In this document: positions 1-10,039 of the stretch, one piece after another
How positions within the stretch are numbered: position 1 is the first letter of the stretch
Layout of the letters: the number at the start of each line of letters is the position of its first letter
Source: Gemmatimonadetes bacterium T265
Lineage (GTDB): Bacteria > Gemmatimonadota > Gemmatimonadetes > Gemmatimonadales > Gemmatimonadaceae
DNA: 32,000 nucleotides
Reading direction: 5' to 3'
Assembly: GCA_019973575.1 (NCBI GenBank)
Contig: BPUI01000001.1
Span: forward strand, 1,220,342 to 1,252,341
Translations under genes and position numbers: made by a program
The notes under the pieces: generated by a model
What the model saw: the letters and a program-made list of their open reading frames with translations, nothing else
Told to the model about the DNA's origin: nothing
Databases searched by the model: none

Positions 1-134
1 GGCACGGGGATCCGGACGCGCTGCTCGCGGAGTACCGGCGGGCGGTGGCGGACGTGGAGGCGACGCGCGAGGCGCTCAAGGCGCAGCTCGCGGGGGCGCT
101 GGAGTCGGCACTCAGCATCGGGACGGCGGCGTGA
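1..134 (+). CDS. 3' end of upstream gene, probably type I R-M methyltransferase subunit (HsdM), partial
   Basis: Frame 3 reads ...EYRRAVADVEATREALKAQLAGALESALSIGTAA with TGA at 132-134. This overlaps the GTG start (131) of the HsdS-like ORF (GTGA overlap, operon-style coupling). The HsdM call rests on synteny only; 43 residues are not diagnostic. Confidence 0.45.
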   Translation, partial: HGDPDALLAEYRRAVADVEATREALKAQLAGALESALSIGTAA

Positions 135-1633
135 CGCCGGAGGCGCTGCGGGCGCAGTTCGACGTGTTGGCGGAGGCGCCTAACGGCGTCGAGAAACTAC
201 GCGAACTGGTCCTACGGCTGGCGTTCCAGGGACGCCTGCTCGGCGAGCCCAGCACGCGGGTGAGCGATGGGCTGCCCAATGGCTGGGCATGGCGAACCGT
301 CGGAGATCTGGCAAACGCGATCGACAGCGGATTTGCATGTAACAAGCAGAACGAGGTCGCTGACGGCTACGTCCATCTCCGCACACACAACGTCGGCACA
401 GATGGGCGGCTCAACTTCGACCTCGTCGTCCGCATCGCGCCGGATAGGGTGCATCCCGAGCGGGCACGCCTGCAGGCGGGCGACGTGCTCTTCAACAACA
501 CAAATAGCCAGGAGCTTGTCGGCAAAACCTGCTTGGTCGATCGCGACTACGAGTACGGCTTCAGCAATCACCTGACGAGAGTTCGGGTCAGCGACGCGGT
601 CGCGCCCGGTTATCTCGTGCGCTACTTCAATCTGCTGCTCCGTACGGGATACTTCGCCTCGTACTGTAATCGCTGGATCGGCCAAGCCGGCATCAACTCA
701 AAGATGCTCCGCGAGGTGACCATCCCTGTCGCGCCGATTGCTGAGCAGCGTCGCATATTGGCGAAGGTCGACGAGCTGATGGCGCTCTGCGACGAGCTGG
801 AAGCGCAGCAGCAGCGTCGCGCCGAGGCGCGGGTGCGGGCGAACCGGTCGGTGTTGCACCACCTCGTGGAGGCCAGCGGCGACGAGGCGCTCGCGGCGGG
901 GTGGGAGCGGCTGCGCGAGAACTTCGGGGTGCTCTACGACGCGCCGGAGCCCCTAGCTGAGTTGCGGCAGTCGGTGTTGCAGCTCGCCGTGCGCGGCAAG
1001 CTTGTTCCATTCGACGCCGCCTCGTGCACCGCGCCGCTCGGCGAAGTCCTGGCCGAGAGCTCACTCAACGGCATCGCCACAAAGCCGCATGACGGGCCAA
1101 CTGGAACACCGATTCTACGGATCAGCGCCGGAACGGCGCGGCGCGACGGCATCGTCGAGGAGAGCGACCACAAGTTCCTGGACCTCGACGCCGCGTCAAT
1201 CGACACATACGCCTTGCGACCTGGGGACCTGCTCGCGTGCCGCTTCAACGGCAACCTCCGTTTCGTCGGACGCATGAGCCTATACACCGGAGCGAGCGGC
1301 GCCACCCAGGTCTACCCGGACAAGTTGATCCGATACCGCGTCGCTCCGGACAGGGCGGACCCCGCGTACGTCCGCCACGTGTTCAATGCGCCCGACACGC
1401 GGCGGCTCATTGAGGCCGAGTGCGCAACCACGGCGGGCAACATCGGCATCAGTGCCGAGCGGCTCCGCACCATTCCTATCCCCGTTCCCTCTCTCATCGA
1501 GCAGCGCCGCACAATCGCCAGGATCGACGCGATTATGGCCCTGTGTGACCGCCTCGACGCCCAGCTCACCCACGCGCGCGAACGCTCGGCCCGCCTGGCT
1601 GATTCGGTTGTGCATCGCCTCACCGCGGCGTAA
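131..1633 (+). CDS. hsdS: Type I restriction-modification specificity subunit (HsdS), two target-recognition domains
   Basis: 500-aa ORF with the classic two-fold HsdS layout. Two variable regions (first opens with LPNGWAWRTVGDL, second with PLGEVLAESSLNG) are each followed by near-identical conserved helices: IAEQRRILAKVDELMALCDELEAQ and LIEQRRTIARIDAIMALCDRLDAQ. GC is visibly lower in the first variable region (301-360 is 55% by hand count). Confidence 0.9.
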   Translation: MTPEALRAQFDVLAEAPNGVEKLRELVLRLAFQGRLLGEPSTRVSDGLPNGWAWRTVGDLANAIDSGFACNKQNEVADGYVHLRTHNVGTDGRLNFDLVVRIAPDRVHPERARLQAGDVLFNNTNSQELVGKTCLVDRDYEYGFSNHLTRVRVSDAVAPGYLVRYFNLLLRTGYFASYCNRWIGQAGINSKMLREVTIPVAPIAEQRRILAKVDELMALCDELEAQQQRRAEARVRANRSVLHHLVEASGDEALAAGWERLRENFGVLYDAPEPLAELRQSVLQLAVRGKLVPFDAASCTAPLGEVLAESSLNGIATKPHDGPTGTPILRISAGTARRDGIVEESDHKFLDLDAASIDTYALRPGDLLACRFNGNLRFVGRMSLYTGASGATQVYPDKLIRYRVAPDRADPAYVRHVFNAPDTRRLIEAECATTAGNIGISAERLRTIPIPVPSLIEQRRTIARIDAIMALCDRLDAQLTHARERSARLADSVVHRLTAA

Positions 1634-1751
1634 GCGCGCCGGACGCCTAACGCAAGTCGACACCCTGACGCGCGTATCGGTCGCGCGGTGGCGAGCACGG
1701 CGTGCACCGCCCGGCACGGCCGCCCGTAGGCAATCCACACCGCTCGCCCGA

Positions 1752-1772
1752 CGCCGCGCCTTCGGCGCGGCG
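1752..1772. terminator. GC-rich hairpin between convergent hsdS and kinase genes (candidate bidirectional terminator)
   Basis: cgccgcgcc-ttc-ggcgcggcg gives 9-bp perfectly complementary arms (effectively 8 bp plus a cUUCGg-type loop). It lies 119 nt after the hsdS stop and 35 nt after the kinase stop. There is no clear U-tract. Confidence 0.35.
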
Positions 1773-1806
1773 CGGACCTCCGCCGCGTGTGGCTCGGCAA
1801 CCGGCA

Positions 1807-4341
1807 CTACCTCGTGAGCGTGAACGTGAACGGGAGCTGCACGAGCTGCTTCACCTTCTTCCCGCCGATCTCGGCCGGGTAGAACCTCGCGCGGCTCACG
1901 CCGTCCTTCGCGGCCTGCGTGAAGAGGTCGTTCGTCGACTCGAGCACCTTCCACGTGCTCATGTCGGCGAGCCCCGTGGTGTCGACGACGAATTGCGCCG
2001 TGACCTTGCCGTCGCCGCCGCCGCCGAACTTGAGCGCCTCCGGGTAGCTGGCCGAGAGCGTGCCCGGGACAGCCGCTGCCTGCTTCTCGACCTGGAACTC
2101 GAAGTAGGTCATCCCCGTGGACGCGCGCCCGGTCGGCGTTGCCGATCCTGGGAGCGGCGCAGACGACGCTGGTTTGGTCGGCCATTGCCCTGGCGCGGCG
2201 CCCTGCGACTGGACGACTTGGGGACTCGCCGGCTCCGTACTCTCCGAGTGGCCGGCGACGCGTGCGGCCACGTTCCCGGACACCAGCCCGAGCACCGCGG
2301 CCGCGCCCCATGCAAGGGCGGCGAGTCGTCGGTCCAGCAACGCGCGGCCCGCGACGGCGGCGACGTTGGCCGTCGCCGCGCCGACCGCGACCTGCTGCGC
2401 CCCGATCTCGCGCACGAGCCGGCCGCGGAGCTGTGCCGCGGCGCCGCCGAGTTGGCGGAGCACGCCGGGGCCGGCCGCGAGCGCCCGCTCGATCTCGTCG
2501 CGGCGGCGGGCGAAGCGCGCCTCCAGGGCCGCGAGTTCGGTGGGATCGACGGCCTTCGACGGATCGAAGAGAAACGTCCGTTCGACAAACCGCCGCCACG
2601 CGACGAGATCGTTCGCCCGCTTTCCGCCGAAGCCAGGGACGGCGACGACGGCCGCGTACGTGACGTCGGCCGCCGTCTCGATCCCGTAGGACGCCAGCGT
2701 CGCCGCGCGTCCGGCGCCGATCCCCGGCACTCCGCTGCTGGCGATGAAGTGCCCGTCGAGGTACTGCTGGAGCTGGTGCTCGCGGCGCCTTGCGTCCAGC
2801 TCCTGCCGCGCGCGCCGTTTGTCCGTGTCGAGCCCCTGGTGTTCGGACCGCAGCGCGTCGAGTTCTTGCCGTTTCGCGCCGAACTGCCCCGCCGCCCCGC
2901 CGATCTCGCGCGTCCACCGTTCCTCCATGCTCCGGAGGCGCGCGCCTGCCGCCTCGACCTCTCGCGTGCGGCGCTCGTGCTCCCCCGCGAGCCCCGAGCC
3001 GCGCCGCAGGCCGAAGAAGAGCAGGAGCAACCCGGCCGCGACGGCGTCGGCCGGCGCTCCGGCGCCGCCCACGGTGCCCGCGACGAACGCGCCCCCGGCA
3101 GCGGCGGCGACGAACCGGTGACTCCGCCACGCGGCGCGTCTCCAGCGTGGCACGGGCGCGGTGGGCTGGGCCGCCGCGGACGCGGTGGTGAGCGCAACCG
3201 GGATCGCGGGACTCGCCTCGGGTGCCGGAACACCCATGATCGCCGCCCACACCTCGACCGCGTTGAAGCCGGCGAGATGCTGCACGCCGACGAGCACGCT
3301 CGCGAAGAAGTCCGGCCCGCCGGCGTTCGCGATCGCGCACCAGGGACAGGCGCCGAGCCCGCGCGGATATTTGTGCCCCGGCATGACGGCGCACGTCGTG
3401 ACATCCTTCGCCAGCGCGCCGAGCGCGGTCTTCCACTCGGCCGCGGTAGGGCGGGCGCCGTCCCGAACCCCGTCGCGCCCGAACGCGCGCTCGAACAGGT
3501 CGGCGACGTCCGCCGACGCGCTCGCGAGCGGGAGCGCGTTAGGCGGCGGCGCCATCTGGAGGGTGCCCGCGTTCCGGCCGAAGGCGAAGCGGAACTCGGC
3601 GATGGCCTGCTCGAGCGGCATGTCGCCCGCGCCGGCGTACCGCCCCGCGAACGGGTGCCGGCCCATGAACAGCAGGTGGAAGACGAGGACGGCGAGCCCG
3701 AACGCGTCGTGGTTCGGCGTCCGGGTAATGCCGACGAAGCTCTTCCCCTGAAGCTCCGGCGGCGTGAAGTGCCCGACGCCGACCTCGCACGGAAACCAGC
3801 GTGACCCGTCGCGGATCTGGAACGAGTCGCAGTCGATGAGGCGGACGCGCCCCTCGCGGGCGACGAGCACGTTGCCCTGATTGACGTCCCCGATCACGTG
3901 CCCCGCCGCATGCACCTGCGCCATCGCCGCCGCCAGGTTGTGCGCGACGATGACGAGGCGTTGCCAGTCGACGTGCGGGAACTCCGTCTTGCGCGAGATC
4001 GGCGAGTAGAGCCGGTGGACGGGCGCCCCGCTCGCGCGCGGCATGACCAGGCCGACCACGGGCGCGCCCGCGCCGGCTGCGCGCGCGTGCGCGTGAAGCG
4101 TCGCCGTCGGCCACGCCGCAACCTCCGTCAGCGCGGGGCGCACGCCGCGCACCATCGCGGCGAGCTTCGCCGATTGCTCGGCGTCTGCCGTCTCGTGGTA
4201 CAGCTTGGCGACGCAGTCCGGGGCGTCGATGATCTCGTAGACGTTCCCCTCGCCCCCTCGTCCGATCTCCCCGCCGAGGTGCAGCGGCCGCCCCGCCGCG
4301 TCGACGAGTGCCCCCCACGGTGGCGCCGTGGTGCTCGTCAT
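1807..4341 (-). CDS. Ser/Thr protein kinase of a vWA/PP2C/kinase triad (YegI-like), with helix-hairpin-helix region and an in-frame C-terminal TonB-like module (844 aa)
   Basis: The real start is ATG 4341 (MTSTTAPPWG...). The upstream 260 codons of the 1104-aa ORF are an Arg-rich shadow of the PP2C gene. Kinase motifs: Gly-loop GEIGRGGEGNVY, Lys in VAKLY, catalytic HVIGDVNQGNVLV, IDCDSF. These are followed by C-x5-H-x8-C-x2-C (TTCAVMPGHKYPRGLGACPWC), a hydrophobic hairpin, coiled-coil-like charged repeats, two HhH motifs (GVPGIGAGRAATL, VPGFGGKRANDLV), a TM helix, a P/S-rich linker and a TonB_C-like end. No stop codon occurs before 1807. Confidence 0.9.
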   Translation of the reverse strand: MTSTTAPPWGALVDAAGRPLHLGGEIGRGGEGNVYEIIDAPDCVAKLYHETADAEQSAKLAAMVRGVRPALTEVAAWPTATLHAHARAAGAGAPVVGLVMPRASGAPVHRLYSPISRKTEFPHVDWQRLVIVAHNLAAAMAQVHAAGHVIGDVNQGNVLVAREGRVRLIDCDSFQIRDGSRWFPCEVGVGHFTPPELQGKSFVGITRTPNHDAFGLAVLVFHLLFMGRHPFAGRYAGAGDMPLEQAIAEFRFAFGRNAGTLQMAPPPNALPLASASADVADLFERAFGRDGVRDGARPTAAEWKTALGALAKDVTTCAVMPGHKYPRGLGACPWCAIANAGGPDFFASVLVGVQHLAGFNAVEVWAAIMGVPAPEASPAIPVALTTASAAAQPTAPVPRWRRAAWRSHRFVAAAAGGAFVAGTVGGAGAPADAVAAGLLLLFFGLRRGSGLAGEHERRTREVEAAGARLRSMEERWTREIGGAAGQFGAKRQELDALRSEHQGLDTDKRRARQELDARRREHQLQQYLDGHFIASSGVPGIGAGRAATLASYGIETAADVTYAAVVAVPGFGGKRANDLVAWRRFVERTFLFDPSKAVDPTELAALEARFARRRDEIERALAAGPGVLRQLGGAAAQLRGRLVREIGAQQVAVGAATANVAAVAGRALLDRRLAALAWGAAAVLGLVSGNVAARVAGHSESTEPASPQVVQSQGAAPGQWPTKPASSAPLPGSATPTGRASTGMTYFEFQVEKQAAAVPGTLSASYPEALKFGGGGDGKVTAQFVVDTTGLADMSTWKVLESTNDLFTQAAKDGVSRARFYPAEIGGKKVKQLVQLPFTFTLTR
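1810..2112 (-). other. TonB C-terminal-like domain (last ~100 aa of the kinase ORF)
   Basis: MTYFEFQVEKQAAAVPGTLSASYPEALKFGGGGDGKVTAQFVVDTTGLADMSTWKVLESTNDLFTQAAKDGVSRARFYPAEIGGKKVKQLVQLPFTFTL matches the TonB_C pattern as I know it (YP..a...g..G.V...fvVd..G.v....vl.s.......aa..av...rf.Pa...G..v...v..Pf.F). It is preceded by a TM helix (LAALAWGAAAVLGLVSGNVAARV) and a Pro/Ser-rich spacer. Recognised by eye, not by HMM. Confidence 0.7.
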
Positions 4342-5195
4342 GCGGTCCAGGCGGTCGCGGTCCGGCGCGTCGCGAGGACGAGCGTCTTGTCGTCGTCGGT
4401 GCGCGCGTTGACGCGGGGCGAGTCCAGGAATTCCCGCAGCCCCGCGACGAGCCCCGGCGCGTCGCCCGTCGGCCGGCCGCGGAGCTGGCCGAACATCGGG
4501 CGGAAGAACGGCGCGTGGGCCGCGCGCGCGTCGAAGCGGAGCGCGAGCCCCTGCAACCCGTCGGAGAAGAGCGCGACCTCCTCGACGATGCGGTCGCGCA
4601 CGAACGCGACCTCGAGCCGGCACAGCGCTTCGGGCTCCGTCGCGAAGAAGGTCATGTTGGCGTACTCGCCGGACTGCGGCCAGAAGACCGGGGCGTACCC
4701 GACCGGCTCTGGCGCGTCGACGACGATGGCACCGTCCCCGATCTGGGCGAAGACGGCCGCGTCCGGGCCGACGACCGCAAGCAGCAGCGTACAGGCGAGA
4801 TCGCGAGGCGTCGCGTCGAGTTCCGCCGCGCGAGCCGCGACGGCGGCGTGCACGCCGAGGAACCACGCCTCGACCGTGTCGCGCGTGGCCGCGTGGAGCG
4901 CGTGACGTTCGAGGTGATCGCGGACCTCGCCGAGGATCGCCGCGCAGGCGAGCGAGGAGCCCTCGTGCGAGAGGCGCGCGCTTCCCGCGCCGTCCGCGCA
5001 GGCGAGCGCGAGCACCTCGCCGTCCGGGCTCGCCAGGTGCTCCGTGTCCGACGCGTCCTGGCAGCCTGTCCCGGTCGCGCGGTGCGACGTCCCGACGACC
5101 GACGCCCGCACGACGCGCCACCCCGGGCGGGCCGACGTGGACCCCGAGGGCGTCGCGTCCGCCGGGAGCGGCCGGTCCGCGGTGGGGAGCGTCAC
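4338..5195 (-). CDS. PP2C-family protein phosphatase (PP2C_2 type, YegK/PphC-like)
   Basis: GTG at 5195 is the first start downstream of the vWA stop (25-nt gap). Motifs: WRVVRASVVGTSHRATGTGCQDA, ACADGAGSA, ALFSDGL. The stop TGA 4338-4340 overlaps the kinase ATG 4339-4341 (ATGA). The annotated 330-aa ORF start at 5330 would overlap the vWA gene and is Arg/Pro junk. Confidence 0.85.
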   Translation of the reverse strand: MTLPTADRPLPADATPSGSTSARPGWRVVRASVVGTSHRATGTGCQDASDTEHLASPDGEVLALACADGAGSARLSHEGSSLACAAILGEVRDHLERHALHAATRDTVEAWFLGVHAAVAARAAELDATPRDLACTLLLAVVGPDAAVFAQIGDGAIVVDAPEPVGYAPVFWPQSGEYANMTFFATEPEALCRLEVAFVRDRIVEEVALFSDGLQGLALRFDARAAHAPFFRPMFGQLRGRPTGDAPGLVAGLREFLDSPRVNARTDDDKTLVLATRRTATAWTA

Positions 5196-5220
5196 GCGCC
5201 GCGCCGCCGGTGCCGGACGG

Positions 5221-5910
5221 TTAGGCGCTGATGGACGCCCAGCCGCCAGCCGCGGTCGGGTTGACCAACGCGACGCTGGTGCCCGGCGTCGACTGCGAGA
5301 TCGAGCGCATCGAATTGGAGAGCCAGACAAACAGGTCGCGGAAGCGGAGGCCGTCCATCTTGAGCGCGGGCCGCGCCGGCGAGAGCTGCGCGAGCACGTC
5401 CATCTTCGCCCCGCCGATCCCGACGGCGAACATGGAGAACGACTTGCTCGCTTCCCCCTCGCGGATCATCGCGCTCGCTTCGTCGACCCGGTCCGTCGGG
5501 GCCCCGTCGGTCATGAGGAAGACCCACGGACGGTAGAACGCGATGCCGTTCACCTCGTAGACGGCCTTCCGCTGACGGAGCAGGTCGAGGCCCTGCAGAA
5601 TCGCGCCGCCCATGGGCGTATCGCCGCCCGCGGTCAGCATCGGCGGCACGTAGGCGCTCGCGCCGACGAAGTCGTGGGCGACGCGCACGGGGCCAAAGGT
5701 CACCGCGGCGATCTCGACGCGCTTCGCCGCGAGCGCGTCCGCGTTGAGCTCGTCCCTCAACGCGACGAGTCCACGGTTGAGCTGTTGAATCGGCTGCCCG
5801 CCCATCGAACCGGAGGTGTCGAGCAGCAGCACGACGGGACACCGCGGCTCGGGGTTCTCCGCGAAGTCGTCGGAGCCGAAGGCGATCTGCTCGTGGGTGG
5901 ACTCTTCCAT
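5221..5910 (-). CDS. von Willebrand factor A (vWA) domain protein, TerY/YegL-like
   Basis: MIDAS motif DTSGSM, later GGDTPMG and LMTDG; the N-terminal NPEPRCPVVLLLD is typical of TerY-type vWA proteins. I prefer ATG 5910 (MEESTHEQ...) over ATG 5970. By hand count, third-position GC is about 70% in the 20 codons between them and about 88% afterwards. Confidence 0.85.
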   Translation of the reverse strand: MEESTHEQIAFGSDDFAENPEPRCPVVLLLDTSGSMGGQPIQQLNRGLVALRDELNADALAAKRVEIAAVTFGPVRVAHDFVGASAYVPPMLTAGGDTPMGGAILQGLDLLRQRKAVYEVNGIAFYRPWVFLMTDGAPTDRVDEASAMIREGEASKSFSMFAVGIGGAKMDVLAQLSPARPALKMDGLRFRDLFVWLSNSMRSISQSTPGTSVALVNPTAAGGWASISA

Positions 5911-6194
5911 GATGCGGGGCGACGAATCGTGGGACGCCCGAACGGGACTCGAGCGATGAAGCAGTGACATGGATCACGCTGCCACAACCTGCGGGAGAGT
6001 CGCGGCACCAGCAAGAGCCGCCGTTCTGCCGCGGTCGGGTACGTCCTCTGTCGACACATGTAGGGACAGGGGTACGCGACGGAGCCGACGCGCCGCGTGC
6101 TGGAGAACGCGGGGCTGTGCCACGAGGGCGTCCTCCGGCGCCGGACGACGAGCCCGCTACAGCCCCGCCCCGCGCGATGCCCACGGCCTCGCTA

Positions 6195-6524
6195 TCACGC
6201 GCGGCTCGCGGGCGCGACCCAGGCCCGCCCGGTCGCGAGGTCGCGCGTCACGTCCCAGCCGCGGAGGAAGGTGACGCCGAGGTTCACGGCGAGCGCGAGC
6301 CCCTCCGTGTCGCACACGACGCGCATCGGCACCGCGACCGCTCCCGTCGCAGGCGCGACGCGGGCGGCCAGACTCGCCGGGCTCTCCACGGTCAGCGTCC
6401 CCGGCGTAAGCTGGACGGCGATCGCCCGCCCGGCGAACACGTCCAGCCCCAGGGCGCCGTCGCCCGGGCCGGTCCCCGCATCGGTCACCACACCGATCCG
6501 GCGCGTGTCGGCGCGCGTGGACAC
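6195..6524 (-). CDS. Hypothetical protein (109 aa), weak resemblance to retropepsin-like (clan AA) small proteases
   Basis: GTG start. Third-position GC is about 95% by hand count over the whole ORF, which supports real coding. The C-terminal NLGVTFLRGWDVTRDLATGRAWVA resembles the LG.dFL..f.v..D motif that closes bacterial retropepsin-like domains. The N-terminal VVTDAGTG is only a degenerate D-T/S-G-A. The function call is tentative. Confidence 0.55.
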   Translation of the reverse strand: MSTRADTRRIGVVTDAGTGPGDGALGLDVFAGRAIAVQLTPGTLTVESPASLAARVAPATGAVAVPMRVVCDTEGLALAVNLGVTFLRGWDVTRDLATGRAWVAPASRA

Positions 6525-6728
6525 GTGAGACCATGGAAGCTGTTAGGCGGCGGGGGGCACGCGCCCGAGTCCGGGCGGTGTACGGGTGCCCGGCGACGTA
6601 CGTGGAACGCGCGCGAGTAGACGGCCGAACGGACCCGGCGGTGTGCCAGGGGTGCCGTCCGGTGCGACGTCAGTGCTCCCGCGCCAGGGTGTGCCCTCAG
6701 ACTATCCGACCGAGTCACCCGTACACGA

Positions 6729-6760
6729 GAACCGGCCAGCGCGCGCGCGCTGGCCGGTTC
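6729..6760 (-). terminator. 32-nt perfect palindrome immediately downstream of tRNA-Phe (candidate terminator)
   Basis: gaaccggccagcgcgc|gcgcgctggccggttc is exactly self-complementary (about a 14-bp stem plus 4-nt loop). It starts 32 nt after the tRNA 3' end on the minus strand. A weak U-containing tail follows (UCGUGU). Confidence 0.55.
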
Positions 6761-6791
6761 CTAAGCTCTGTCCCTTCAACACGTTAGAGAG

Positions 6792-6864
<73 letters not shown>

Positions 6865-6897
6865 GTGATCTGGTAACCCATTGCAAATCAACGACTT

Positions 6898-6931
6898 GCA
6901 AACCTGTACCAGAATAAGTCCGCAAACCTGT
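6898..6931. repeat. Two copies of the 10-mer GCAAACCTGT, 24 bp apart, in the AT-richer segment upstream of tRNA-Phe
   Basis: GCAAACCTGT occurs at 6898-6907 and 6922-6931. A related TTGCAA occurs at 6881-6886 and 6895-6900 (self-complementary hexamer). This is the only clearly AT-enriched stretch of the window and is presumably the tRNA promoter/UP region. I could not assign a canonical -10. Confidence 0.4.
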
Positions 6932-7654
6932 CTCAAAACGTGTCTCAGACCGATCTGGTCCTGACCGGCGAGCGGCGCTCCATAGAATAGCCGGCCCGGC
7001 GCGAGACCGGCAAGCGGCCGCCTCGCGGGGTGCGACCCCGGAACGTCAGTCTGACCGCCCGCCATCACGGCCGGCGTGTCGCCTCTCCGATGTCACTGCC
7101 GTGATTGCCGGGTTGCATGCTGTGATACGCCACCCGCCGGCAGGCCGGGGGCGCGCAGCATTGTCAAGTTCACACCGGATCCTCGATGTCCGTGTGCTCG
7201 GCGGCTGGGACTCCGCGCCCGTGCTCCTCCAGGGAACGAGCACGGCAGGTTCCCGCGATCCATCGCCAGCGGGTACGCCCGCCGTCACTTGACAACGCCG
7301 TCCCACGCCGCCGGATCGTGATGCGCTCCTCCGGCCGGGCGTCGGCGTGGTGTTCGACGTGTTCGCGGTATTCGGAACCGCGATCAGCCAGGCGGACGAG
7401 CCCATGGCCGGCTTCCCCCGCCCCGGGCCGGTGATCCGGGCGACGGGCAGCGCCGTCGCGGGTGAGGTGCGCGTCCTCGTCCGCGCGCCCGCCGACGCGC
7501 GCGCCGACACACGCTAACGGGACTGCCCGCGCATCGGACGCGGCACCAACGCCGGCCACTCCCCCGGCGGACGGCTTGCGCGTACGTGCTCTCCACGCCG
7601 GCGCGCCCGCGTACCTCGCTGCCGCTCCCGGGAGCGCGCCCGAGCCCCCGCGGA

Positions 7655-10039
7655 CTACCGCGACCCCGCGGCGGGCCGGGCGCCCTCGGCGGCGGGCACG
7701 CCGGCGGGCAGGTGCTCGTGCAGGTAGCGCGTCAGCAGCTCGAACAGGTGCCGCGAGGTGTTGTCGCCCTCGCAGATGCAGTGCGACCGGTTCGGGTAGG
7801 CCATCATCGTGAACGGCTTGTTGGCGGCCACGAGGGCGTTGATCACCGCCTCGCTGTTCTGGTAGTGCACGTTGTCGTCGCCCGTGCCGTGCACGAGCAG
7901 CAGGTCGCCGCGGAGGCCGGCCGCGACCGACACGGCGGCGGCCTGGCGGTACCGCGCCGAGTCCTCTTGGGGGAGCCCCATGTAGCGCTCCTCGTAGATC
8001 GTGTCGTAGTACCGCGGGTCGCTCACCGGGGCCACCGCCATCCCCATGCGGTACAGGGCGGGGTAGCGGAACAGCAGGTTGAGCGTCGTCGCCCCGCCGC
8101 CGCTCCACCCCCATACGCCGACGCGCGCGGGATCGAGGTACGGGCGCTGTCGCAGGAGCGCCTCGACGGCGCCGGCCTGGTCGCGCGCGTTCAGCACGCC
8201 GATCTGTCCGTAGATCACCTTGCGGAACGCGCGGCCGCGCGGCGCCGGCGTCCCGCGGTTATCGACGCTCGCGACGACGTAGCCCTGCTGCGTGAGCATG
8301 AGATGCCAGAGGTACTCCGCCCCGCCCCACGCGTCGAGCACGGTCTGCGCGGCGGGTTCGCCGTAGACGGTGAAGAGCACCGGGTAGTGCTTCGTCGGGT
8401 CGAAGTCCGGCGGCGTCATCATCCAGCCGTCGAGCGTGACGCCCGCCGCGGTGGTCACGCGGAAGAATTCGGCCGGCCGGCGCTGGAGCGTCGTCACCGC
8501 GGCGCGGAGCGCGGCGTTGTCCGTGAGCGTGCGCACGACCTCGTGGCTCGGGAGCCGCACGAGTTGCGTCACCGGCGGCGCGCCGAACGCCGAGGTGGTG
8601 TGGAACGCCCAGCGTCCGTTCGGCGCGACGACGTACGTGTGCGTGCCCGGCTGGTCGGCGGGCGTCACGCGCCGGGGGGCGCCGCGCCCGTCGAGGCGCG
8701 CCGTGTAGAGGTACAACTGCGTCGCATTCTCCGGCGACGCCGTGAAGTAGAACACGCCGGCCGCGCTGTCCGTCCCGACGACGAGCGGCGCCCCGAACGC
8801 GCTGCCGGGGTTGTCCAGATCGAACGCGCCGGGCGTGAGGAGCCGCGTCGTCGCGCCGTCGCGCGACACCGTGTAGAGGTGGCGCCAGCCATCGCGCTCG
8901 CTCACCCACGTGAAGCGCCGGCCGCCGGCCGCCCAGCGCAGGTCGTCGACGACGTCGAGCCACGCGCTGTCGCGCTCGGTCAGCACGGTGCGCACCCGTC
9001 CCGTGCGCGCGTCGCCGAGCATCACCTCGTTCGTATTCTGCCGGCGGTTGAGGTGCTGCAATACCACCTCGTCGGAGTTCGCGGCCCACTCGAGCCGCGC
9101 GATGTAGTGGTCGCGCGGGTCGCCCGGCACCGCCAGCCAGCGGGTGGGGCCGCCCGCCGCGTCGACCACGCCGACGCGCGCGGCCGAGTTGGTGGTCCCT
9201 GCCTTGGGGTACTGCACGGGCGTGGCGACCGCGTAGAGCGAGTCGGTGTCGTCGACCAGCAGGTAGTCGCGCACCCCGCTCGCGTCGAGTTGCCAGTACG
9301 CGAGGCGCGTCCCGTCGGGGCTCCAGCGGAAGCCGTCGCGGAGGTTGAACTCTTCCTCGTACACCCAGTCGAAGGTGCCGTTGATGACCGTGCGCGACCC
9401 GTCGCGCGTGAGGCGCGTGATCGCGCCGTCGGCCACCCCTTCGACGTACAGGTCGTGGTCGCGCACGTACGCGACGCGCCGCCCGTCGGGCGAGAATTTG
9501 GCGAACATGAGCGTCGACGGCGCCGCGTCCCCGCCGAGCTTCCGCATCGGCCCGCCCGCGGGGTCGACGACCCAGTAGTCCCCGCGCGTGTTCTGCCGCC
9601 ACACCCGCTGCGAGTTGGTGAACACGAGGAGCCGCGCGCCCTCGGGCGACCACGCGTAGTCTTCCACCGCGACCGGGGTCGCCGCGCCGGGGGGCACGAG
9701 CCGCGTCGCCGGCACGAGTACCGTCCGCTGGCCCGTCGCGGCGTCGTAGCGCACGAGGTCGCGGCCCCCGGCGCCGTTCGCCGCCGGCTCCAGACTCGTG
9801 TACCCGGCGCCGTCGGCGAGCCACCGCCGCCCGCGCGCCGGCTGCGGCGCGAAGTCGCGCGAGGCGAACACCCGCTCGAGCGTGACGCGCGTGGGATCAC
9901 CCGGCAGCGCGGCAGTGCCCGGTTGCGCGCGGACCACCCGTCCCGACGCGAGGAGGCCCGCCGGTGCGACGGCAACGAGGGCCGCGCGGCGCACCGGCGC
10001 CCAGCGGGAACGGTCGGGGGAGTACACGGCAGTCTCCAC
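7655..10039 (-). CDS. Dipeptidyl-peptidase IV-type prolyl oligopeptidase (peptidase S9B), secreted
   Basis: 794 aa with a GTG start. N-terminal signal-like RRAALVAVAPAGLLASG. DPPIV beta-propeller signatures: FAKFSPDGRRVAYVRDHDLYV, INGTFDWVYEEEF, FRWSPDGTRLAYWQLD. Catalytic triad context: GVWGWSGGG (Ser), VHGTGDDNVH (Asp), YPNRSH (His). Confidence 0.92.
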   Translation of the reverse strand: METAVYSPDRSRWAPVRRAALVAVAPAGLLASGRVVRAQPGTAALPGDPTRVTLERVFASRDFAPQPARGRRWLADGAGYTSLEPAANGAGGRDLVRYDAATGQRTVLVPATRLVPPGAATPVAVEDYAWSPEGARLLVFTNSQRVWRQNTRGDYWVVDPAGGPMRKLGGDAAPSTLMFAKFSPDGRRVAYVRDHDLYVEGVADGAITRLTRDGSRTVINGTFDWVYEEEFNLRDGFRWSPDGTRLAYWQLDASGVRDYLLVDDTDSLYAVATPVQYPKAGTTNSAARVGVVDAAGGPTRWLAVPGDPRDHYIARLEWAANSDEVVLQHLNRRQNTNEVMLGDARTGRVRTVLTERDSAWLDVVDDLRWAAGGRRFTWVSERDGWRHLYTVSRDGATTRLLTPGAFDLDNPGSAFGAPLVVGTDSAAGVFYFTASPENATQLYLYTARLDGRGAPRRVTPADQPGTHTYVVAPNGRWAFHTTSAFGAPPVTQLVRLPSHEVVRTLTDNAALRAAVTTLQRRPAEFFRVTTAAGVTLDGWMMTPPDFDPTKHYPVLFTVYGEPAAQTVLDAWGGAEYLWHLMLTQQGYVVASVDNRGTPAPRGRAFRKVIYGQIGVLNARDQAGAVEALLRQRPYLDPARVGVWGWSGGGATTLNLLFRYPALYRMGMAVAPVSDPRYYDTIYEERYMGLPQEDSARYRQAAAVSVAAGLRGDLLLVHGTGDDNVHYQNSEAVINALVAANKPFTMMAYPNRSHCICEGDNTSRHLFELLTRYLHEHLPAGVPAAEGARPAAGSR

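What the first reader, a model, noticed from the sequence alone, without database searches (positions are those of the whole stretch)
1807..5910. Tightly coupled vWA / PP2C / Ser-Thr kinase operon (TerY-P phosphorylation triad architecture)
**What the sequence shows.** Three co-directional genes on the minus strand: a TerY-like vWA with an intact MIDAS (DTSGSM...T...MTDG), a PP2C_2-type phosphatase 25 nt downstream, and a kinase whose ATG overlaps the phosphatase stop (ATGA).

**Established context.** This is the triad defined computationally as TerY-P (Anantharaman, Iyer and Aravind) and represented in E. coli by yegL/yegK(pphC)/yegI. To my recollection it was among the candidate systems shown to give anti-phage activity in the Gao et al. 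2020 screen. Its trigger, substrates and effector step remain unknown.

**Local details.** The kinase catalytic loop is non-canonical (HVIGDVNQGN instead of HRDxKxxN, and DCD instead of DFG), as in YegI-like kinases.
Basis: partly seen in the sequence, partly recalled or inferred. Interest (0 to 1): 0.6.

Follow-up and report, generated by a model that had tools for sequence, protein, structure and literature searches.

The report
YegL-PphC-YegI triad with TonB-tailed kinase
Three real, tightly coupled genes (metal-binding vWA protein, PP2C phosphatase, membrane Ser/Thr kinase) are the Gemmatirosa counterpart of the unexplained E. coli yegL-pphC-yegI module, not of the proven TerY-P anti-phage system; here the kinase has gained a periplasmic tail copied from the cell's own TonB and lies in a small tRNA-bounded island beside two defence systems.

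Summary
vWA (5221-5910), PP2C_2 (4338-5195) and the kinase (1807-4341) are co-directional on the minus strand, with a 25-nt gap and an ATGA overlap.

All three proteins are clear homologues of E. coli YegL, PphC and YegI (56/38/39% identity). They are not members of the experimentally validated TerY-P family. PADLOC's TerY, PP2C and STK_OB models score 572/358/878 bits on the E. coli G3/10 system but hit neither this triad nor E. coli YegLKI, and BLASTP between the two triads is not significant.

The YegLKI-type triad is widespread (at least 548 species genomes), core in E. coli (5417/5426), and of unknown function. This scan has reported it many times on other DNA.

What is unusual here:
- The kinase carries a third TM helix, a disordered linker and a TonB_C domain that is 85% identical to the resident TonB.
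- This is a rare fusion that arose at least twice and is under purifying selection.
- The triad lies in a 12.3-kb islet bounded by tRNA-Phe and a repeat of its 3' half, together with SoFic and a complete type I R-M.
- It is present in only 3 of 61 relatives.

A defence role is plausible (about 40%) but unproven.

The parts
5221..5910 (-). vWA (YegL-like) gene with intact MIDAS; an alternative upstream ATG lies at 5970
   Evidence: Pfam VWA 36.8 bits. 56% identity to E. coli YegL, E 6e-84. Relatives call a 229-aa protein. It is the most conserved component across phyla, at 52-67% identity outside the genus.
4338..5195 (-). PP2C_2 phosphatase (PphC/YegK-like); GTG start 25 nt after the vWA stop
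   Evidence: PP2C_2 162.8 bits. 38% identity to PphC. D68 aligns with PphC D46, the residue whose D46N mutant is inactive.
1807..4341 (-). YegI-like Ser/Thr kinase, 844 aa; its ATG overlaps the PP2C stop (ATGA)
   Evidence: 39% identity to YegI over aa 22-631, E 4e-128. Junction sequence. AF2 mean pLDDT 80.
3406..4308 (-). Hanks-type kinase domain (aa 12-312) with K46, D152/N154 (GDVNQ) and D170/D172 (IDCD)
   Evidence: PknB/PknA target TM-scores 0.64-0.71.
3337..3393 (-). Zinc-ribbon-like C-x5-H-x8-C-x2-C (C317, H323, C332, C335)
   Evidence: All four residues are invariant in 38 homologues. Two short strands lie at aa 314-326 in the model.
2995..3147 (-). Two-helix transmembrane hairpin (aa 399-449)
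   Evidence: AF2 helices 399-424 and 428-449. Hydrophobic windows. Aligns with the YegI region shown by PhoA/LacZ fusions to be a two-pass hairpin.
2350..2991 (-). Cytosolic coiled coil (aa 451-529), HhH region (aa 537-588) and long helix (aa 600-664)
   Evidence: AF2 secondary structure at pLDDT 82-96. HHH_5 18.2 bits, below cut-off. Other sources name the family 'DNA-binding helix-hairpin-helix protein with protein kinase domain'.
2107..2340 (-). Third TM helix (aa 668-694) and Pro/Ser/Ala-rich disordered linker (aa 695-745), both absent from E. coli YegI
   Evidence: AF2 helix 668-688, then pLDDT below 50. Hydrophobic windows at 673-675. dN/dS 0.92 against the 90% relative, typical of a linker.
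1810..2106 (-). TonB C-terminal domain (aa 746-844), predicted periplasmic
   Evidence: Pfam TonB_C 31.8 bits, cut-off 24.6. 85% aa and 82.7% nt identity to the C-terminal domain of the resident TonB at G000:C2:939256-939978, which lies next to ExbB. dN/dS 0.28.
131..1633 (+). Type I R-M specificity subunit HsdS, convergent on the kinase; the reading frame is open to the window's start
   Evidence: Methylase_S. PADLOC Specificity_I 221.6 bits. HsdR and HsdM lie just upstream of the window.
6195..6524 (-). orf109, probably a truncated remnant of a 355-aa ORF found in a close relative
   Evidence: 83-91% nt identity to the 3' part of L122:6747-7814. No Pfam or PADLOC hit.
6791..6864 (-). tRNA-Phe (GAA), the only one in the genome; one boundary of the islet
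   Evidence: ARAGORN. A 50-nt, 92% direct repeat of its 3' half lies 12.3 kb away at G000:C1:1214798-1214847.

Best explanation
This is a YegL-PphC-YegI-type phosphorylation cassette. It has the TerY-P domain plan in the broad comparative-genomics sense, but it is a different family from the validated TerY-P defence system.

Shown:
- All three proteins are full-length homologues of the E. coli proteins, with catalytic and MIDAS residues intact.
- The kinase matches YegI up to aa 631 or so. It then adds a third membrane helix, a disordered linker and a TonB C-terminal domain copied from the resident tonB-exbB locus.
- This fusion is rare, arose at least twice in Gemmatimonadaceae, and is kept under purifying selection.
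- The cassette lies in a 12.3-kb islet bounded by tRNA-Phe and a repeat of its 3' half, together with SoFic and a complete type I R-M.
- It is sporadic among relatives.

Inferred:
- The kinase domain, zinc ribbon, coiled coil and HhH region face the cytosol, and the TonB_C tail reaches the periplasm.
- There the tail binds what TonB binds: TonB boxes of outer-membrane receptors, or peptidoglycan. No ExbBD energy is involved, because the third helix has no His inside its membrane core.
- Occupancy or disturbance of those receptors changes kinase autophosphorylation. PP2C resets it, as PphC does for YegI.
- The highly conserved vWA protein reads the phospho-state through its MIDAS and acts as adaptor or effector, possibly at DNA held by the HhH region.

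In this islet the most likely role is a conflict or phage-related sensor switch (about 40%). A general envelope or nutrient-uptake signalling role is nearly as likely.
For: Identity:
- BLASTP to YegL, PphC and YegI.
- Pfam hits.
- Invariant catalytic and zinc-ribbon residues.
- 75 of 80 loci from many phyla keep the order vWA, PP2C, kinase.

Biochemistry of the E. coli homologues:
- PphC dephosphorylates YegI.
- Overproduced YegL or YegI raises DNA damage.

Architecture:
- AF2 model, mean pLDDT 80.
- Kinase fold.
- TonB_C above Pfam's cut-off.

Origin of the tail:
- 85% aa and 82.7% nt identity to the resident TonB, starting abruptly at the domain edge. That gene lies beside ExbB.

Rarity and convergence:
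- Only P0003-P0006 and P0009 among the 120 best homologues carry the fusion, and 1 of 80 species loci.
- In the kinase tree the fused proteins fall in two places, separated by well-supported branches.
- P0009's tail is 84% identical to the resident TonB of another genus and only 58-60% to the other fused tails.
- G007 has a third design, RCC1 repeats plus TonB_C, also behind vWA and PP2C.

Selection: dN/dS is 0.28 on the tail and 0.25 on the kinase domain.

Island:
- Direct repeat of the tRNA-Phe 3' half.
- SoFic 376.9 bits, REase_I 1186, MTase_I 705 and Specificity_I 222.
- A full-length kinase in 3 of 61 relatives.
- Different flanks in each close relative, with CBASS, an AriA/GajA-like ATPase, an HSDR_N/RAMA protein or a toxin-antitoxin part nearby.
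Against: - No experiment links any YegLKI-type triad to phage defence in the papers I could read.
- PADLOC holds no model that hits it.
- In E. coli the triad is a core chromosomal locus (5417/5426), with no known inducing condition.
- Across the family, the 48 immediate neighbours of 24 diverse loci are heterogeneous. Only a few hit PADLOC: one type I REase, one SoFic and some candidate families. Type I HsdM is near 2 of 80 loci.
- No integrase is present in the islet, and its structure differs between relatives, so its mobility is historical at best.
- Periplasmic location, TonB-box binding and the role of the vWA protein are inferences from topology and homology. None was tested.
Confidence: 0.6

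Rival explanations
1. It is a member of the experimentally validated TerY-P anti-phage system (Gao et al. 2020 type) and defends in the same way.
For: Same three-domain plan and operon order. The validated-type system in E. coli G3/10 also lies directly next to a type I R-M, as this triad does. TerY-P protects against T7-like phages and Autographiviridae.
Against: PADLOC TerY, PP2C and STK_OB match the G3/10 proteins at 572/358/878 bits, but match none of the window's vWA or PP2C proteins even at E<=10. BLASTP between the triads is not significant. The validated kinase ends in an OB fold (the PADLOC model is named STK_OB). This one has a zinc ribbon, TM hairpin, HhH region and TonB_C.
Confidence: 0.03
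2. It is a non-defence envelope or nutrient signalling switch. The kinase monitors TonB-dependent outer-membrane transport (iron, carbohydrates, cofactors) and adjusts cytosolic targets, and its place in the islet is incidental.
For: YegLKI is core in E. coli. Family-wide neighbours are mostly ordinary genes such as TetR, Tex, thiolase and binding proteins. The tail copies the housekeeping TonB next to ExbB. In this phylum TonB_C is commonly attached to BlaR1-like M56 signal transducers. The genome has many TonB_C paralogues.
Against: Sporadic presence: 3 of 61 relatives and 2 of 5 genomes of the genus. The segment is bounded by a tRNA and its repeat and is shared with SoFic and a type I R-M. 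Defence-type neighbours occur in most of the close relatives examined. A housekeeping sensor of nutrient uptake would be expected to be conserved within the genus.
Confidence: 0.3
3. The long kinase ORF is an assembly or annotation artefact, or a decaying fusion without function.
For: NCBI's pipeline named the G004 orthologue 'energy transducer TonB', which shows the annotation is confused. The linker evolves almost neutrally (dN/dS 0.92).
Against: The same in-frame architecture occurs in five protein clusters from independent assemblies in ENA, NCBI and Logan. dN/dS on the tail is 0.28. Third-position GC stays at 0.84-0.97 through the whole ORF. The fusion arose at least twice.
Confidence: 0.04

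Closest known systems
E. coli YegL - PphC (YegK) - YegI
   Same: All three proteins are full-length homologues at 56/38/39% identity. Shared features are the gene order, the ATGA overlap of phosphatase and kinase reported for E. coli B strains, the variant catalytic loop GDVNQ and IDxD, the zinc ribbon, the two-helix membrane hairpin, and the coiled coil plus HhH C-terminal region.
   Different: The kinase has about 190 extra C-terminal residues: a third TM helix, a linker and TonB_C. The E. coli locus is core and fixed between yegD and mdtA. This one is sporadic and lies in a tRNA-bounded islet with defence genes.
TerY-P anti-phage system (Gao et al. 2020 type; E. coli G3/10 homologue; PADLOC TerY/PP2C/STK_OB)
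   Same: vWA, then PP2C, then Ser/Thr kinase, in one operon. Both lie directly beside a type I R-M.
   Different: There is no significant sequence similarity in any of the three proteins, and the PADLOC models do not hit. Its kinase ends in an OB fold and has no TM hairpin, HhH region or TonB_C. It is very rare in E. coli (4/5426).
TerY-P triads of CoCoNuT type II/III-A and ter-linked clusters (Anantharaman et al. 2012; Bell et al. 2024)
   Same: The same three-domain switch, and the kinase is followed by a zinc ribbon. They are associated with restriction-type genes.
   Different: Those triads are embedded in McrBC/CoCoNuT or ter operons. No such genes are here. Sequence relationship was not tested because no reference sequences were at hand.
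BlaR1-like Peptidase_M56 - TonB_C membrane transducers of Gemmatimonadota
   Same: A cytosol-facing signalling enzyme joined through the membrane to a C-terminal TonB_C domain of the same local type (44-57% identity to the tail region).
   Different: The output domain is a zinc protease rather than a kinase, and there are no vWA or PP2C partners.
TonB (energy transducer) of the resident tonB-exbB locus
   Same: The C-terminal domain is 85% identical, and the YP motif is kept.
   Different: The kinase's third helix has no His in its membrane core, whereas the resident TonB helix has the Ser-x3-His pattern. There is no proline-lysine or proline-glutamate spacer and no adjacent exbBD genes.

Membership tests
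TerY-P triad in the broad architectural sense (vWA + PP2C + Ser/Thr kinase operon) | TerY-like single-domain vWA protein with a complete MIDAS | tested here: met
   Pfam VWA 36.8 bits. DxSxS, T and D motifs were read in the translation.
TerY-P triad in the broad architectural sense (vWA + PP2C + Ser/Thr kinase operon) | PP2C phosphatase and Ser/Thr kinase encoded co-directionally and adjacent to the vWA gene | tested here: met
   25-nt gap and ATGA overlap. PP2C_2 162.8 bits. Kinase fold shown by AF2 and Foldseek.
YegL-PphC-YegI orthologous cassette | Significant full-length similarity of all three proteins to the E. coli K-12 proteins | tested here: met
   E 6e-84, 4e-46 and 4e-128; the whole of YegI is covered.
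YegL-PphC-YegI orthologous cassette | YegI hallmarks: GDVNQ catalytic loop, IDxD in place of DFG, C-H-C-C zinc ribbon, two-helix membrane hairpin, HhH-containing C-terminal region | tested here: met
   The topology itself is inferred from E. coli experiments.
Validated TerY-P defence system (PADLOC TerY-P) | Match to PADLOC models TerY (PDLC02224), PP2C (PDLC02222) and STK_OB (PDLC02223) | tested here: not met
   No hit for vWA or PP2C at E<=10, and the kinase hits only PD-T4-6, MkoA and mad6 weakly. Positive control: the G3/10 proteins score 572/358/878 bits.
Validated TerY-P defence system (PADLOC TerY-P) | Kinase with a C-terminal OB fold | tested here: not met
   The C-terminal half is TM hairpin, coiled coil, HhH, TM and TonB_C. 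The OB fold of the validated type is described.
Validated TerY-P defence system (PADLOC TerY-P) | Protection against phages when expressed | not testable with these tools
   Needs plaque and liquid-infection assays.
TonB family energy transducers | TonB_C domain | tested here: met
   31.8 bits against a cut-off of 24.6. 85% identity to the resident TonB C-terminal domain.
TonB family energy transducers | N-terminal signal-anchor helix with the Ser-x3-His motif that couples to ExbB/ExbD, and exbBD partners | tested here: not met
   The helix before the tail (aa 668-694) has no His in its membrane core, and no exbB lies nearby. The resident TonB has the motif and an adjacent ExbB. That the motif is required for coupling is from my knowledge of E. 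coli TonB.
tRNA-integrated genomic island | Intact tRNA at one end and a direct repeat of its 3' part at the other | tested here: met
   50-nt repeat, 92% identical, same orientation, 12.3 kb away.
tRNA-integrated genomic island | Integrase next to the tRNA, and an empty site in relatives | tested here: not met
   No integrase lies between the repeats. Relatives have tRNA-Phe at another, apparently ancestral, site, so no simple empty site exists.

The most novel reading that the evidence does not exclude
YegI-type kinases in Gemmatimonadaceae have repeatedly taken the C-terminal domain of the host's own TonB, so that the cassette can listen at outer-membrane TonB-dependent receptors. When a phage, colicin-like toxin or ligand occupies a receptor and exposes its TonB box, the kinase tail would bind it. 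The cytosolic kinase/PP2C/vWA switch would then fire before DNA enters. That would be an outer-membrane tripwire for a defence or stress response, and the first clue to the input of the unexplained, E. coli-core YegLKI module.
Probability: 0.15. Interest if true: 0.8.

Novelty: new variant of a known kind. Interest (0 to 1): 0.45.

Why it matters
The YegL-PphC-YegI cassette is present in nearly every E. coli and in hundreds of species from many phyla, including archaea, yet it has no known input, substrate or phenotype. It is often equated from memory with the TerY-P defence system. The tests here show that the two are separate families, so anti-phage evidence cannot simply be carried over.

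The TonB tail gives a concrete hypothesis about the input side: outer-membrane TonB-dependent receptors. Three observations support that lead. The tail was copied from the host's own TonB. The fusion arose at least twice, and a third design also exists. The tail is kept under purifying selection. The islet context (SoFic and a type I R-M at a tRNA) gives a reason to test for phage defence.

If the tail does sense receptor occupancy, it would be a new way of coupling an outer-membrane event to cytosolic Ser/Thr phosphorylation.

Tried and rejected
- NCBIfam gave no informative hit for the window's proteins, for E. coli YegLKI, or for the G3/10 TerY-P proteins.
- The promoter and terminator scan of 1500-7700 found nothing relevant to the operon.
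- The founding papers (Anantharaman et al. 2012; Gao et al. 2020) are not in the library. I relied on later papers that summarise them.
- I could not decide whether the 'TerY-P variant' tested in Pseudomonas aeruginosa is of YegLKI type. Only primers are in its supplement, and no Pseudomonas collection was left to scan.
- I tested whether type I R-M is a regular partner of the triad. It is not: HsdM is near 2 of 80 loci.
- I tested for a conserved fourth gene. There is none. The 355-aa and 354-aa ORFs upstream in L122 and L124 are unrelated, and immediate neighbours are heterogeneous.
- The TonB_C-only tree is poorly resolved. I rely instead on the identity matrix and the kinase-core tree.
- A simple empty-site comparison failed, because the tRNA-Phe region is rearranged between relatives.

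Full report
**The sequence**

The window is about 75% G+C. It belongs to a 5.6-Mb genome whose nearest named relatives are Gemmatirosa (Gemmatimonadaceae).

- a vWA gene at 5221-5910;
- a PP2C gene at 4338-5195, starting with GTG 25 nt after the vWA stop;
- a kinase gene at 1807-4341, whose ATG overlaps the PP2C stop in ATGA.

Pfam finds VWA (36.8 bits, above cut-off), PP2C_2 (162.8 bits), and Pkinase (25.9 bits, below the 31.7 cut-off). The AlphaFold2 model of the kinase (mean pLDDT 80) superposes on PknB/PknA kinase domains with target TM-scores of 0.64-0.71.

The MIDAS residues, the PP2C metal-site Asp (D68, equivalent to PphC D46) and the kinase residues K46, D152, N154, D170 and D172 are all present. 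The kinase residues are invariant in 38 homologues.

**Family assignment**

BLASTP against E. coli K-12 (locus L003) gives:

| Window protein | E. coli protein | Identity | E-value |
|---|---|---|---|
| vWA | YegL | 56% | 6e-84 |
| PP2C | PphC | 38% | 4e-46 |
| kinase (aa 22-631) | YegI (whole protein) | 39% | 4e-128 |

The shared features include:
- the unusual GDVNQ and IDxD motifs;
- a C-x5-H-x8-C-x2-C zinc ribbon;
- the membrane hairpin that PhoA/LacZ fusions showed to be two-pass in YegI, with both termini in the cytosol;
- a coiled coil plus HhH C-terminal region.

A scan of one genome per species found at least 548 genomes with a relative, from many bacterial phyla and from Methanoregula. 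In 75 of the 80 loci kept, vWA, PP2C and kinase lie in the same order. The vWA protein is the most conserved of the three.

**It is not the validated TerY-P family**

I recovered a homologue of the TerY-P defence system, the one cloned from E. coli G3/10 by Stokar-Avihail et al.. I used a short stretch printed in their supplement to find it. RefSeq names its genes 'TerY-P anti-phage system' proteins.

- Positive control: its proteins match PADLOC TerY, PP2C and STK_OB at 572, 358 and 878 bits.
- The window's vWA and PP2C match no PADLOC model, even at E<=10.
- E. coli YegL and PphC match no PADLOC model at E<=0.01.
- BLASTP between the two triads is not significant: E = 0.3, 0.24 and 0.008.
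- The validated kinase ends in an OB fold, which this one lacks.
- In E. coli the two behave as opposites. The G3/10-type vWA is in 4 of 5426 complete genomes, while yegL-pphC-yegI is in 5417.

So the domain plan is shared but the family is not. The anti-phage results for TerY-P do not transfer by homology.

**What is unusual in the kinase**

E. coli YegI ends at the equivalent of about aa 650. Here the ORF continues with:
- a third hydrophobic helix (aa 668-694);
- a disordered Pro/Ser/Ala-rich stretch (aa 695-745);
- a TonB_C domain (aa 746-844; 31.8 bits against a cut-off of 24.6).

With a cytosolic kinase and a two-pass hairpin, a third helix puts the tail in the periplasm. This is an inference.

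The tail is 85% identical in protein and 82.7% in DNA to the C-terminal domain of a canonical 241-aa TonB in the same genome. The similarity starts abruptly at the domain boundary. That gene lies immediately upstream of the genome's best ExbB match. The kinase's third helix has no His in its membrane core, whereas the resident TonB has the Ser-x3-His pattern. Coupling to ExbBD is therefore unlikely. This rests on my knowledge of E. coli TonB.

**Rarity, convergence and selection**

- Among the 120 best homologues, only five protein clusters carry TonB_C: P0003-P0006 and P0009. The nearest unfused proteins (P0007, P0008) are 72% and 71% identical.
- Only 1 of 80 species loci has the fusion.
- A search with the tail region among long proteins returned four kinase fusions. 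The other 46 were 45 BlaR1-like M56-TonB_C transducers and one RCC1-TonB_C protein, the named ones from the same phylum.
- In a tree of the kinase cores, P0003-P0006 form one well-supported clade, sister to unfused P0007/P0008. P0009 lies elsewhere, and no bootstrap tree allows a single origin.
- P0009's tail is 84% identical to the resident TonB of another genus and only 58-60% to the other fused tails.
- A third design occurs in genome G007: a YegI-like kinase behind PP2C and vWA, with hydrophobic helices, RCC1 repeats and a TonB_C end.
- Between this kinase and its 90% relative, dN/dS is 0.28 on the tail, 0.25 on the kinase domain and 0.92 on the linker.

The tail is therefore a maintained, repeatedly acquired functional module.

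**Context**

The 20 kb upstream of the window (L002) holds, in order:
- a transposase;
- a TonB_C-containing protein;
- a Fic protein that matches PADLOC SoFic full-length (376.9 bits);
- HsdR (REase_I, 1186 bits);
- HsdM (MTase_I, 705 bits).

HsdS (222 bits) fills window 131-1633 and converges on the kinase.

On the other side lie orf109 and the genome's only tRNA-Phe. A 50-nt, 92%-identical direct repeat of the tRNA's 3' half lies at G000:C1:1214798-1214847, just beyond SoFic. It delimits a 12.3-kb segment holding SoFic, the type I R-M, the triad and orf109. No integrase is present.

A full-length kinase homologue is found in 3 of 61 relatives (G000, G004 and G007), and in 2 of 5 genomes of the genus.

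The flanks differ in every close relative:

| Relative | Neighbourhood |
|---|---|
| G004 | Fic remnant upstream, no R-M |
| 90% relative (L122) | GNAT and MarR flanks, a tRNA-Phe 3'-half fragment and a toxin-antitoxin part |
| P0009 | CBASS (patatin plus cyclase) two genes away |
| P0012 | AriA/GajA-like ATPase and IS21 |
| P0007 | HSDR_N/RAMA protein |

In this clade the triad travels in variable, defence-rich DNA.

Across the whole family the picture is different. The 48 immediate neighbours of 24 diverse loci are heterogeneous, and only a few hit PADLOC. HsdM is near 2 of 80 loci.

**How it most likely works**

Shown for the E. coli homologues:
- YegI autophosphorylates, PphC dephosphorylates it, and YegI can phosphorylate PphC-D46N.
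- Overproduced YegL or YegI raises DNA damage.

Inferred here:
- The kinase sits in the inner membrane, probably as a dimer through the coiled coil.
- Its HhH region holds DNA near the membrane.
- Its periplasmic tail binds TonB boxes of outer-membrane receptors, or peptidoglycan.
- Events at those receptors shift the kinase/PP2C balance.
- The vWA protein reads the phospho-state through its MIDAS.

I put about 40% on a phage or conflict-related role in this islet and about 30% on a general envelope or uptake signalling role. The rest is unknown.

**Relation to earlier notes of this scan**

The scan has reported YegLKI-type triads many times on other DNA: 314 notes in at least 223 genomes, some with other sensor domains on the kinase.

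I confirmed the notes on this window about the TonB-like tail and the Cys/His cluster. I strengthened the 'defence islet' note by finding the direct repeat. I corrected the note that hsdR is missing; it lies just outside the window.

**Verdict**

The triad is an ordinary member of a known but unexplained cassette. Its identification with the proven TerY-P defence system is wrong at the family level. The TonB-tailed kinase in a tRNA-bounded defence islet is a new variant worth a bench test.

Noticed in passing
G000:C1:1263959-1264001 (about 11.6 kb beyond the window's end): An exact 43-nt copy of the 5' half of tRNA-Phe, in the same orientation, lies 36.8 kb from the intact gene. In G001, G002 and G004 the intact tRNA-Phe lies beside the orthologue of the gene next to this fragment. 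The tRNA region of this genome has therefore been rearranged, or carries a second old insertion that includes the DPP-IV, PolB, beta-lactamase-like and MacB genes of the window.
   Followed up: partly
L002:14672-15925 (minus strand), 4.4 kb upstream of the window: The Fic/Fic_N protein at the far end of the islet is a full-length match to the PADLOC SoFic defence model (376.9 bits).
   Followed up: yes
L002:16101-19897 and window 131-1633: The type I R-M is complete: HsdR and HsdM lie just outside the window and HsdS inside it.
   Followed up: yes
window 6195-6524 (minus strand): orf109 is 83-91% identical in DNA to the 3' part of a 355-aa ORF that precedes the triad in the 90% relative (L122:6747-7814). 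That ORF contains a D-T-G motif. orf109 looks like a truncated remnant.
   Followed up: partly
L035:9121-13394 (G007:C105): A same-family genome has a vWA-PP2C-kinase triad whose 1052-aa kinase has a YegI-like catalytic domain, hydrophobic helices, RCC1 repeats and a C-terminal TonB_C domain, but no HhH region.
   Followed up: partly
L124:4000-6446: In the metagenomic contig carrying the independently fused kinase P0009, a CBASS-like pair (patatin, then a SMODS/AGS_C cyclase) lies two genes upstream of the triad.
   Followed up: no
Loci L042-L121: Across phyla the vWA protein is the best conserved member of the triad: 52-67% identity to the window's protein, against 41-54% for the kinase domain and 34-54% for PP2C (excluding L042, the same-genus relative). 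This suggests it is the most constrained part of the switch.
   Followed up: no
Proteins P0123-P0167: Gemmatimonadota encode many 500-600-aa proteins that join a BlaR1-like Peptidase_M56 domain to a TonB_C domain of the same local type. TonB_C therefore appears to be a common periplasmic module of membrane signal transducers in this phylum.
   Followed up: no
L030/L031 (G001:C9:142800-166400): In G001 the orthologues of the riboflavin-kinase-like gene and the DPP-IV gene that flank the islet region in this genome are 24 kb apart. None of this genome's intervening genes lie between them, so the interval is a variable hotspot in the genus.
   Followed up: partly
L041:9407-12081 (E. coli G3/10): The validated-type TerY-P system of E. 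coli G3/10 is followed directly by type I R-M hsdM and hsdS genes. This is the same pairing as in this window, although the two triads are unrelated in sequence.
   Followed up: no
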